Positions 37,560 through 38,350 of a stretch of 64,000 bases of DNA are shown in pieces. Origin of the DNA: Escherichia coli. GTDB taxonomy: Bacteria > Pseudomonadota > Gammaproteobacteria > Enterobacterales > Enterobacteriaceae. Both the position numbers and the translations under genes were made by a program. Below the pieces are notes generated by a model. That model saw only the letters and a list, made by a program, of their open reading frames with translations. It searched no databases and was not told the origin of the DNA. The stretch lies in the NCBI RefSeq assembly GCF_030013595.1, contig NZ_CP122768.1; one strand, given 5' to 3'. How positions within the stretch are numbered: the stretch's first letter is position 1; the number at the start of each line of letters is the position of its first letter.

Positions 37560-38350
37560 TTAACGAATTGAATATCCACCATCAATAACTAATAGTTGTC
37601 CATTGACATAATCTGAAGCGGCACTGGCGAGGAACACCATTGCACCCATAAGATCCTGTGCCCTTCCCCAGCGTTGAGCTGGTATACGCCCTTTTATTAA
37701 CTCTTTTATTTTAGGGTTATTATAAATAATCGCTGTCATTTCACTCACATAATATCCTGGGGCGATACCATTGATCTGAATATTATATTCCGCAAAATCA
37801 TCGGCATACGCTTTGGTCAGCCCCGCTAAAGCATGTTTAGTCGCAGCATACCCTGGCGACCAACGTCCTCCATGAAATGACAATACTGAACACATATTAA
37901 TAATTTTCCCTTTTTTTGCGGGACAAATATATTCAATGCGGCCTGGCTCATATCGAATGCAGCATTCAGGTTGAGATTAATCATCGGATCCCAGTCGTTT
38001 CGATTGAAATCGATAGGACGATTAATGTTACACACGCCCGCGTTATTGACCAGAATATCTAACTGACCGAAACGCTCCAGACACCTATTAATAATGGTAC
38101 ATGCTGCATCAGGTTTTGTTATGTCTATTGTCATAAACTCAACTTCAACGCCTTCATGAGTTAAATGCTTTAAATATCTATTATCAGGCTCTTTGATGTC
38201 TACCAACAACAGATTAGCCCCTGCTTTGGCCAGAGCCGAGCATAAGCCTCTCCCCAGTTCACCCGCGGCCCCAGTTACGATGGCCACCTTGTTATGTAAT
38301 GAAAAAAAATCCAATGAAAAATCTTCAATAGAAAAGCTCATATCACACAT
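37560..38350 (-). pseudogene. Short-chain dehydrogenase/reductase gene split by a frameshift
   Basis: N-part ORF 37826..38350 has Rossmann VAIVTGAAGELGRG and NNAG; C-part ORF 37560..37895 in a different frame has YAATKHA (YxxxK); the two frames overlap around an A7/T7 homopolymer at 37911-37917. Confidence 0.7.

What the first reader, a model, noticed from the sequence alone, without database searches (positions are those of the whole stretch)
37560..38350. SDR gene split by a frameshift at an A7/T7 homopolymer
The Rossmann half (TGAAGELGRG) and the catalytic half (YAATKHA) of one short-chain dehydrogenase are in different frames that overlap around TTTTTTT at 37911-37917. This could be a genuine pseudogene, a slipped-strand switch, or a homopolymer sequencing error.
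Basis: seen in the sequence. Interest (0 to 1): 0.35.

Follow-up and report, generated by a model that had tools for sequence, protein, structure and literature searches.

The report
Frameshifted dehydrogenase pseudogene in E. coli
One missing A in a run of eight splits a sugar-acid-type dehydrogenase gene on an E. coli pathogenicity-type island into two dead halves; this is an ordinary, most likely genuine, gene-inactivating mutation that is already annotated as such in a related strain.

Summary
On the minus strand, 38341..37560 is one KduD-like short-chain dehydrogenase gene, the orthologue of O157 Sakai ECs_1275 on an OI-47-type island. It is broken by a single-base deletion in a homopolymer (T7 at 37911-37917, A7 on the coding strand). 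Intact close relatives have A8. Of 400 complete E. coli genomes carrying the gene, 371 match exactly a 63-base query carrying AAAGAAAA (Arg143). So an AGA>AAA substitution first created an A8 run in a shallow clade, and A8>A7 slippage then broke the frame. The deletion is the only non-synonymous difference from the intact allele. The zero-frame product (171 aa) lacks Ser152, Tyr165 and Lys169. The same A7 lesion is annotated 'frameshifted' in strain 2012C-4221 and occurs on at least 28 other public contigs, on several SNP backgrounds. The window's assembly differs from its nearest relative at only 4 of 357 homopolymers of 5 bases or more. I therefore rate a genuine pseudogene about 0.7, an assembly error about 0.2 and a phase switch about 0.05. 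One detail is worth noting. The deletion creates an in-phase A_AAA_AAG slippery heptamer, and a -1 ribosomal slip there would rebuild the exact wild-type protein. No stimulatory element is present, so any leak is probably below 1%. The finding is ordinary and of low interest.

The parts
37560..38341 (-). Whole KduD-like SDR pseudogene (782 bp; the intact allele is 783 bp and 260 aa). It is the orthologue of O157 Sakai ECs_1275 and of WP_024229589.1.
37911..37917 (-). A7 homopolymer on the coding strand (T7 on the + strand). This is the site of the -1 deletion. Intact close relatives have A8, and most E. coli have AAAGAAAA.
37910..37916 (-). A_AAA_AAG heptamer created by the deletion, in phase with the upstream frame. 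A simulated -1 slip here gives exactly the intact 260-aa protein.
   Evidence: simulation. (literature on the motif). (no downstream structure).
37826..38341 (-). Zero-frame product of 171 aa: 146 native residues of the Rossmann half, then 25 out-of-frame residues and a stop at 37826-37828.
38246..38275 (-). Codons for the glycine-rich dinucleotide-binding motif TGAAGELGRG (residues 23-32).
37560..37895 (-). Downstream ORF in the -1 frame (111 aa, starting at internal Met150). It holds Ser152, Tyr165-x3-Lys169 and the C-terminal part of the fold.
37836..37850 (-). Codons for the catalytic motif YAATK (Tyr165...Lys169), out of frame with the start codon.

Best explanation
This is a recently inactivated gene. 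The intact gene encodes a 260-aa classical short-chain dehydrogenase that is most similar to KduD and to gluconate 5-dehydrogenases. It sits on an OI-47-type island between a chaperone-usher fimbrial operon and the grvA/fidL-like regulator pair. In most E. coli, codons 142-144 read CAA AGA AAA. In one shallow clade a G>A change (Arg143Lys) fused two short A runs into A8 (shown). Replication slippage then removed one A, giving A7 (inferred as the mechanism; the deletion itself is shown). Translation from the normal start now leaves the frame after Lys144 and stops after 171 residues. That product lacks the catalytic Ser152, Tyr165 and Lys169, so the enzyme is lost (inferred from SDR family knowledge). 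The deletion happens to create an in-phase A_AAA_AAG slippery heptamer, and a -1 ribosomal slip there would restore the exact wild-type protein. No upstream Shine-Dalgarno sequence or downstream hairpin is present. Any such rescue is therefore expected only at the low level of a bare motif, under about 1% (inferred).
For: The window differs from the intact allele of MEI003 only by the missing A and one synonymous change. The nearest relative HCP5S3_I2 has A8 and an intact gene. With 63-64-base queries spanning the tract, 371 of 400 complete genomes match the AAAGAAAA version exactly, 6 match A8 and 1 matches A7. All more divergent haplotypes carry the G, so A8 is the derived state. Intact alleles are under purifying selection, with dN/dS of 0.04-0.14. 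PGAP marks the same lesion 'frameshifted' in strain 2012C-4221. The 171-aa A7 product of that type is on 28 contigs, against 529 + 12 contigs for the intact Lys143 protein. A7 occurs on at least four SNP backgrounds. Over about 62 kb, the window differs from its sister genome at only 4 of 357 homopolymers of 5 bases or more. Only 1 of 13 A/T 8-mers and 0 of 25 A/T 7-mers differ, and one of the four tracts is naturally hypervariable. The ratio of 41 SNPs to 5 indels looks like ordinary divergence. Neighbouring genes in the window are also decaying: there is a frameshift in the fimbrial adhesin-like gene and an IS10 in pgaB. The gene is knocked out in other ways in other strains.
Against: No reads are available for the window. 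An A8 run is also a classic site of under-calling in 454, Ion Torrent, PacBio and nanopore data. The window's exact truncated product is not in the 15-billion-protein collection, so this particular A7 allele on this SNP background has no independent confirmation. The window shares both of its gene-breaking -1 alleles (A7 and the C4 in the fimbrial gene) with contigs L028 and L031, which lie on a different SNP background. That needs either homoplasy or a shared systematic error. All four homopolymer differences from the sister genome are shorter in the window.
Confidence: 0.7

Rival explanations
1. The lesion is an assembly or sequencing artefact. The isolate really has A8 and an intact gene, and one A was under-called in the homopolymer.
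For: A8 is a typical error site. The window runs through an IS10 copy, which suggests long-read data. All four homopolymer differences from the sister genome are -1 in the window. The TA124 assembly and a Logan assembly of SRR024331 look like the same strain, sharing 699T>G in an otherwise matching allele. They place two missing bases differently (A6+A4 versus A7+A3), which shows that calls at this tract can be unreliable in some data. The window's exact truncated product is seen nowhere else.
Against: Twelve other A/T 8-mers and all 25 A/T 7-mers agree with the sister genome, including a T8 inside the same gene at 38304-38311. The indel-to-SNP ratio is what real divergence gives. The A7 allele is clearly real elsewhere, on at least 28 contigs from many sequencing runs.
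Confidence: 0.2
2. The tract is a slipped-strand phase-variation switch. Under this reading A8/A7 is a contingency tract that reversibly turns the dehydrogenase on and off.
For: Tract length is polymorphic among very close relatives (A8; A7; one A8 allele that has lost a G from the following GGG; and a possible A6). A7 sits on several SNP backgrounds, each with a close A8 counterpart.
Against: The uninterrupted tract exists in only 7 of 400 complete genomes, and 371 of 400 carry AAAGAAAA. It is therefore not a conserved device. The 2012C-type A7 haplotype is stable across at least 13 near-identical contigs and is linked to a nonsense mutation in the neighbouring regulator. From general knowledge, an 8-base A run in repair-proficient E. 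coli mutates far more slowly than known phase-variable tracts. The gene is also knocked out by nonsense mutations and a 14-bp deletion in other strains, which are irreversible.
Confidence: 0.05
3. The gene is a functional recoded gene ('pseudo-pseudogene'). Under this reading the A7 allele is expressed at useful levels by -1 ribosomal frameshifting on A_AAA_AAG, or by transcriptional slippage.
For: The heptamer is in phase, and a -1 slip gives exactly the wild-type protein. A_AAA_AAG is among the most shift-prone motifs in E. coli and is the one used by dnaX.
Against: No downstream structure stands out (z-scores 0.56 and -0.11), and I saw no Shine-Dalgarno-like sequence upstream. Without stimulators, motifs gave only 2-10 times a 0.055% background. 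Efficient RNA polymerase slippage is reported for runs of 9 A or T, not 7. The motif is not conserved.
Confidence: 0.04

Closest known systems
ECs_1275 of E. coli O157:H7 Sakai, the 'oxidoreductase' of O-island 47 (intact orthologue; the protein of the A8 clade is WP_024229589.1)
   Same: It has the same gene position, between the fimbrial chaperone ECs_1276 and grvA ECs_1274, and the same 783-bp length. It differs by about 2% at the nucleotide level, with 2 amino-acid differences.
   Different: Sakai has AAAGAAAA (Arg143) and an intact frame. The window has A7 and a broken frame.
The frameshifted SDR pseudogene C6W65_RS05690 of E. coli 2012C-4221 (RefSeq NZ_CP027437.1)
   Same: It has an identical A8>A7 lesion at the same tract, and PGAP annotates it as 'frameshifted'.
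   Different: It lies on a different SNP background (166 mismatches over 34.6 kb, against 28 for the A8-bearing sister HCP5S3_I2). Its neighbouring grvA-like gene has an internal stop, whereas the window's is intact.
KduD, 2-dehydro-3-deoxy-D-gluconate 5-dehydrogenase (PDB 4z9y/4za2), and gluconate 5-dehydrogenases
   Same: This is the best solved relative, aligned over the full length (E 1.8e-58). It shares the classical SDR motifs and the GKIIN...S...Y-x3-K core.
   Different: The window's protein scores below the NCBIfam KduD equivalog cut-offs (295.8 against 369; 250.5 against 338.85). It is not in a pectin or hexuronate operon. Its substrate is unknown.
The dnaX / IS911-type -1 programmed frameshift site A_AAA_AAG
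   Same: The heptamer is the same, it is in the correct phase, and the -1 frame carries the rest of the protein.
   Different: There are no stimulators, no conservation, and the motif arose by a recent deletion. It is an accidental look-alike, not a programmed site.

Membership tests
Classical short-chain dehydrogenase/reductase (Pfam adh_short / adh_short_C2) | Profile match above the Pfam gathering score | tested here: met
   Both halves pass: 101.6 and 46.1 bits against the 26.6 cut-off, and 75.6 and 85.8 bits against the 27 cut-off. They cover consecutive parts of the profile.
Classical short-chain dehydrogenase/reductase (Pfam adh_short / adh_short_C2) | N-terminal glycine-rich dinucleotide-binding motif and NNAG | tested here: met
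   TGAAGELGRG is at residues 23-32 and NNAG at residues 99-102.
Classical short-chain dehydrogenase/reductase (Pfam adh_short / adh_short_C2) | Catalytic Ser...Tyr-x3-Lys in the same polypeptide as the Rossmann half | tested here: not met
   Ser152, Tyr165 and Lys169 are encoded, but in the -1 frame downstream of the deletion. The zero-frame product ends at 171 aa without them.
KduD (NCBIfam NF005390 / TIGR01832 equivalogs) | Score at or above the curated equivalog cut-off | tested here: not met
   The scores are 295.8 against 369 and 250.5 against 338.85. This is a KduD-like paralogue, not KduD.
Pseudogene by homopolymer frameshift | The reading frame is broken relative to intact orthologues by an indel in a mononucleotide run | tested here: met
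   The window has A7, close relatives have A8, and the deletion is the only lesion.
Pseudogene by homopolymer frameshift | The lesion is real in the organism and not an assembly error | not testable with these tools
   No reads are available. The indirect evidence favours a real lesion.
Programmed -1 ribosomal frameshift site | In-phase X_XXY_YYZ heptamer with a productive -1 ORF | tested here: met
   A_AAA_AAG lies at 37916..37910, and a simulated slip gives the intact protein.
Programmed -1 ribosomal frameshift site | A stimulatory element (upstream Shine-Dalgarno sequence or downstream structure) | tested here: not met
   The downstream folds are no better than shuffles (z 0.56 and -0.11). 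I saw no Shine-Dalgarno-like sequence upstream in the sequence.
Programmed -1 ribosomal frameshift site | Conservation of the shift site among orthologues | tested here: not met
   Only 1 of 400 complete genomes has A7, and 371 of 400 carry in-frame AAAGAAAA.
Simple-sequence contingency (phase-variable) locus | A conserved long repeat tract in the coding region or promoter | tested here: not met
   An uninterrupted A run is found in only 7 of 400 complete genomes.
Simple-sequence contingency (phase-variable) locus | Frequent reversible length change within clones | tested here: inconclusive
   A7 occurs on several backgrounds, but it is stable across at least 13 near-identical contigs of one clone. 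Heterogeneity within a culture could not be tested.

The most novel reading that the evidence does not exclude
Under this reading the Arg143Lys substitution turned an ordinary codon pair into a mutational hot spot. The hot spot now repeatedly switches off this OI-47 dehydrogenase in different lineages. Nonsense alleles and other frameshift alleles add to the same outcome, which would mean selection for loss of the enzyme in some niches. The A7 'off' allele would remain slightly leaky, because the deletion itself creates an in-phase A_AAA_AAG -1 frameshift site that rebuilds the wild-type protein.
Probability: 0.1. Interest if true: 0.35.

Novelty: already known. Interest (0 to 1): 0.12.

Why it matters
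It matters little beyond annotation. The locus should be annotated as one frameshifted SDR pseudogene, not as two small 'oxidoreductase' genes. It is a tidy example of a two-step route to gene loss, in which a conservative substitution first creates a slippery run and slippage then breaks the gene. The neighbouring fimbrial gene is frameshifted and pgaB carries an IS10, which suggests that adhesion and biofilm functions around OI-47 are eroding in this strain. The accidental in-phase A_AAA_AAG site shows that some 'pseudogenes' could be slightly leaky, but nothing here shows that this one is.

Tried and rejected
1. I looked for the window's own genome among 5,426 complete RefSeq E. coli. It is absent; the best match is HCP5S3_I2 at 99.9%.

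2. I looked up the window's exact truncated products. The 174-aa and 171-aa N-terminal fragments are not in the protein collection. Only the 111-aa C-terminal ORF is, and mostly from strains with other lesions. The window's allele therefore has no independent confirmation.

3. I tested whether the window's assembly is generally error-prone at homopolymers. It is not: 4 of 357 tracts differ, and one of those is naturally hypervariable.

4. I tested whether A7 has a single origin. The SNP backgrounds conflict. The window groups with the A8-bearing HCP5S3_I2 (for example, the shared derived T at 37869) and not with the other A7 carriers. Recombination cannot be separated from recurrent mutation with these data.

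5. I looked for frameshift stimulators downstream of the heptamer and found none.

6. I considered KduD membership and rejected it on the curated cut-offs.

7. I did not run the large protein-homology or structure tools, because within-species orthologues already answered the question.

Full report
**What is in the sequence**

The + strand reads ccc-ttttttt-gcggg, with T7 at 37911-37917. Two minus-strand ORFs flank the run. The first is 38350..37826 (174 aa, containing TGAAGELGRG). The second is 37895..37560 (111 aa, containing YAATKHA). Pfam places them on consecutive parts of one short-chain dehydrogenase domain: adh_short positions 1-131 for the first, and positions 134-189 plus adh_short_C2 positions 142-236 for the second. 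The ORF overlap (37826-37895) lies just downstream of the tract, and the frame change itself is at the tract.

**Where it comes from**

The window is E. coli. The region matches 401 of 5,426 complete genomes. It belongs to an OI-47-type island. In O157 Sakai the gene is ECs_1275, annotated 'oxidoreductase'. It is flanked by the fimbrial chaperone ECs_1276 on one side. On the other side are grvA (ECs_1274), a FidL-like gene and an EAL phosphodiesterase. OI-47 and GrvA are described in PMC8565820. The window's nearest complete genome is the pig isolate HCP5S3_I2, at 99.9% identity.

**The lesion**

Intact orthologues are 783 bp and 260 aa. Against the intact allele of strain MEI003 the window has only two differences: one missing A in the run, and a synonymous G>A at coding position 474. 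Close relatives read CCG CAA AAA AAA GGG (A8). The window and strain 2012C-4221 read CCG CAA AAA AAG GGA (A7). More distant strains read CCG CAA AGA AAA GGG.

I ran short queries spanning the tract against the 400 complete genomes that carry the gene:

| Tract version queried | Exact matches |
|---|---|
| AAAGAAAA | 371 |
| A8 | 6 |
| A7 (strain 2012C-4221) | 1 |
| No exact match (other SNPs nearby) | 22 |

Every divergent haplotype carries the G, so the order of events was AGA>AAA (Arg143Lys), making A8, followed by A8>A7. PGAP already annotates the 2012C-4221 copy as 'frameshifted'.

**Consequence**

The zero-frame product is 171 aa: 146 native residues plus 25 out-of-frame residues. It lacks Ser152, Tyr165 and Lys169. 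Intact alleles evolve under purifying selection, with dN/dS of 0.04-0.14. This is therefore a recent loss of a working gene.

The protein is KduD-like. Its best solved relative is 4z9y (E 1.8e-58). It falls below the NCBIfam KduD cut-offs, so its substrate is unknown.

**Real mutation or assembly error?**

No reads are available, so this question rests on indirect evidence.

Evidence that the mutation is real:
- Over about 62 kb the window differs from HCP5S3_I2 by 41 SNPs and 5 single-base indels.
- Only 4 of 357 homopolymers of 5 bases or more differ in length.
  - The other 12 A/T 8-mers and all 25 A/T 7-mers agree.
  - The agreeing 8-mers include a T8 inside the same gene.
- One of the four differing tracts is a poly-C run that is C8, C9 or C16 in different strains, so it is naturally hypervariable.
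- The A7 allele clearly exists in nature.
  - Its 171-aa product (2012C type) is on 28 contigs, against 541 contigs for the intact Lys143 protein.
  - The contigs come from many separate sequencing runs.

Evidence against:
- The window's own version of the truncated product is found nowhere else.
- All four homopolymer differences are shorter in the window.
- The window shares both of its gene-breaking -1 alleles with contigs L028 and L031, which lie on another SNP background. These alleles are A7 and a C5>C4 in the adjacent fimbrial gene.
- In L028 the shortened tracts are confined to 36.5-37.9 kb, while a C7, a G6 and two A8 runs elsewhere are untouched. That pattern argues for real local decay rather than a platform artefact. 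I cannot explain the shared pair of alleles cleanly.

I put a genuine mutation at about 0.7 and an assembly error at about 0.2.

**Phase variation?**

Tract length varies among close relatives. I saw A8, A7, an A8 allele that has lost one G from the following GGG, and a disputed A6. A7 sits on at least four SNP backgrounds. Against a switch:
- The uninterrupted run exists in only 7 of 400 complete genomes.
- It is stably A7 across a clone that also carries a linked nonsense mutation in the neighbouring regulator.
- Other strains inactivate the gene irreversibly, by Gln133stop, Gln142stop or a 14-bp deletion.

It behaves as a mutational weak point, not as a designed switch.

**A detail on decoding**

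The deletion puts A_AAA_AAG in phase at 37916..37910. A simulated -1 slip reproduces the intact 260-aa protein exactly. This heptamer is the dnaX shift site and one of the most slippery in E. coli. However, bare motifs gave only 2-10 times a 0.055% background in reporter assays. The downstream RNA folds no better than shuffled sequence. Efficient transcriptional slippage is reported for runs of 9, not 7. Any rescue is probably well under 1%.

**Verdict**

This is a correctly spotted, ordinary frameshift pseudogene. The same lesion is already annotated in a related genome. Interest is low.

Noticed in passing
window 35395-36728 (+), tract at 36545-36548: The fimbrial adhesin-like gene next to the SDR is also frameshifted in the window by C5>C4, cutting it from 444 aa to 400 aa. 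All seven complete genomes compared have C5. The same C4 allele occurs together with A7 in two public contigs on a different SNP background (L028 from SRR23924968 and L031 from ERR12767400). Those contigs carry one and two further -1 deletions nearby (C6>C5 at about 36921; G6>G5 at about 35223). This forms a nested series that I could not explain cleanly.
   Followed up: partly
window 47644-48972: There is a 1329-bp insertion with IS10-type ends (CTGATGAATCCCCTAATGATTTTGG...) and a 9-bp target duplication GGTCTGGTT. It interrupts pgaB and is absent from all seven compared genomes.
   Followed up: partly
window 8072-8946: tRNA-Ser(GGA) at 8072-8159 is followed by 4.4 copies of a 179-bp tandem repeat (8145-8937) and then a poly-C run at 8939-8946. 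The run is C8 in the window and in MEW, C9 in HCP5S3_I2 and C16 in 2012C-4221. The repeat number also differs between strains, judging from the spacing between the tRNA and ycdU. This looks like the island's tRNA-side border.
   Followed up: partly
loci L011, L013, L014, L016, L019, L020, L027 (SDR orthologues in other E. coli): The same SDR gene is knocked out in other ways in other strains. The lesions are Gln133stop and Gln142stop (each on two clearly different SNP haplotypes), a 14-bp deletion, a +1 A, and loss of one G after A8. The sample is biased, because all were found through the shared 111-aa downstream ORF.
   Followed up: partly
L015 (GCA_000242055.1, E. coli TA124) and L017 (Logan SRR024331): Two assemblies that look like the same strain place two missing bases differently: A6+GGGAAAA versus A7+GGGAAA. 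This shows that base calls at this tract are unreliable in some older data.
   Followed up: no
window 39027-39848 (+): The grvA-like winged-helix regulator is intact in the window (273 aa). It has an internal stop in 2012C-4221 and its clone. In many other strains it carries an in-frame 9-bp deletion at about 39396-39404, giving 270 aa.
   Followed up: no
L032 9174-10159 (HCP5S3_I2 ycdU); window about 9618: The sister genome HCP5S3_I2 has its own one-base deletion (TT>T) in ycdU, annotated 'frameshifted'. The window has the intact form.
   Followed up: no
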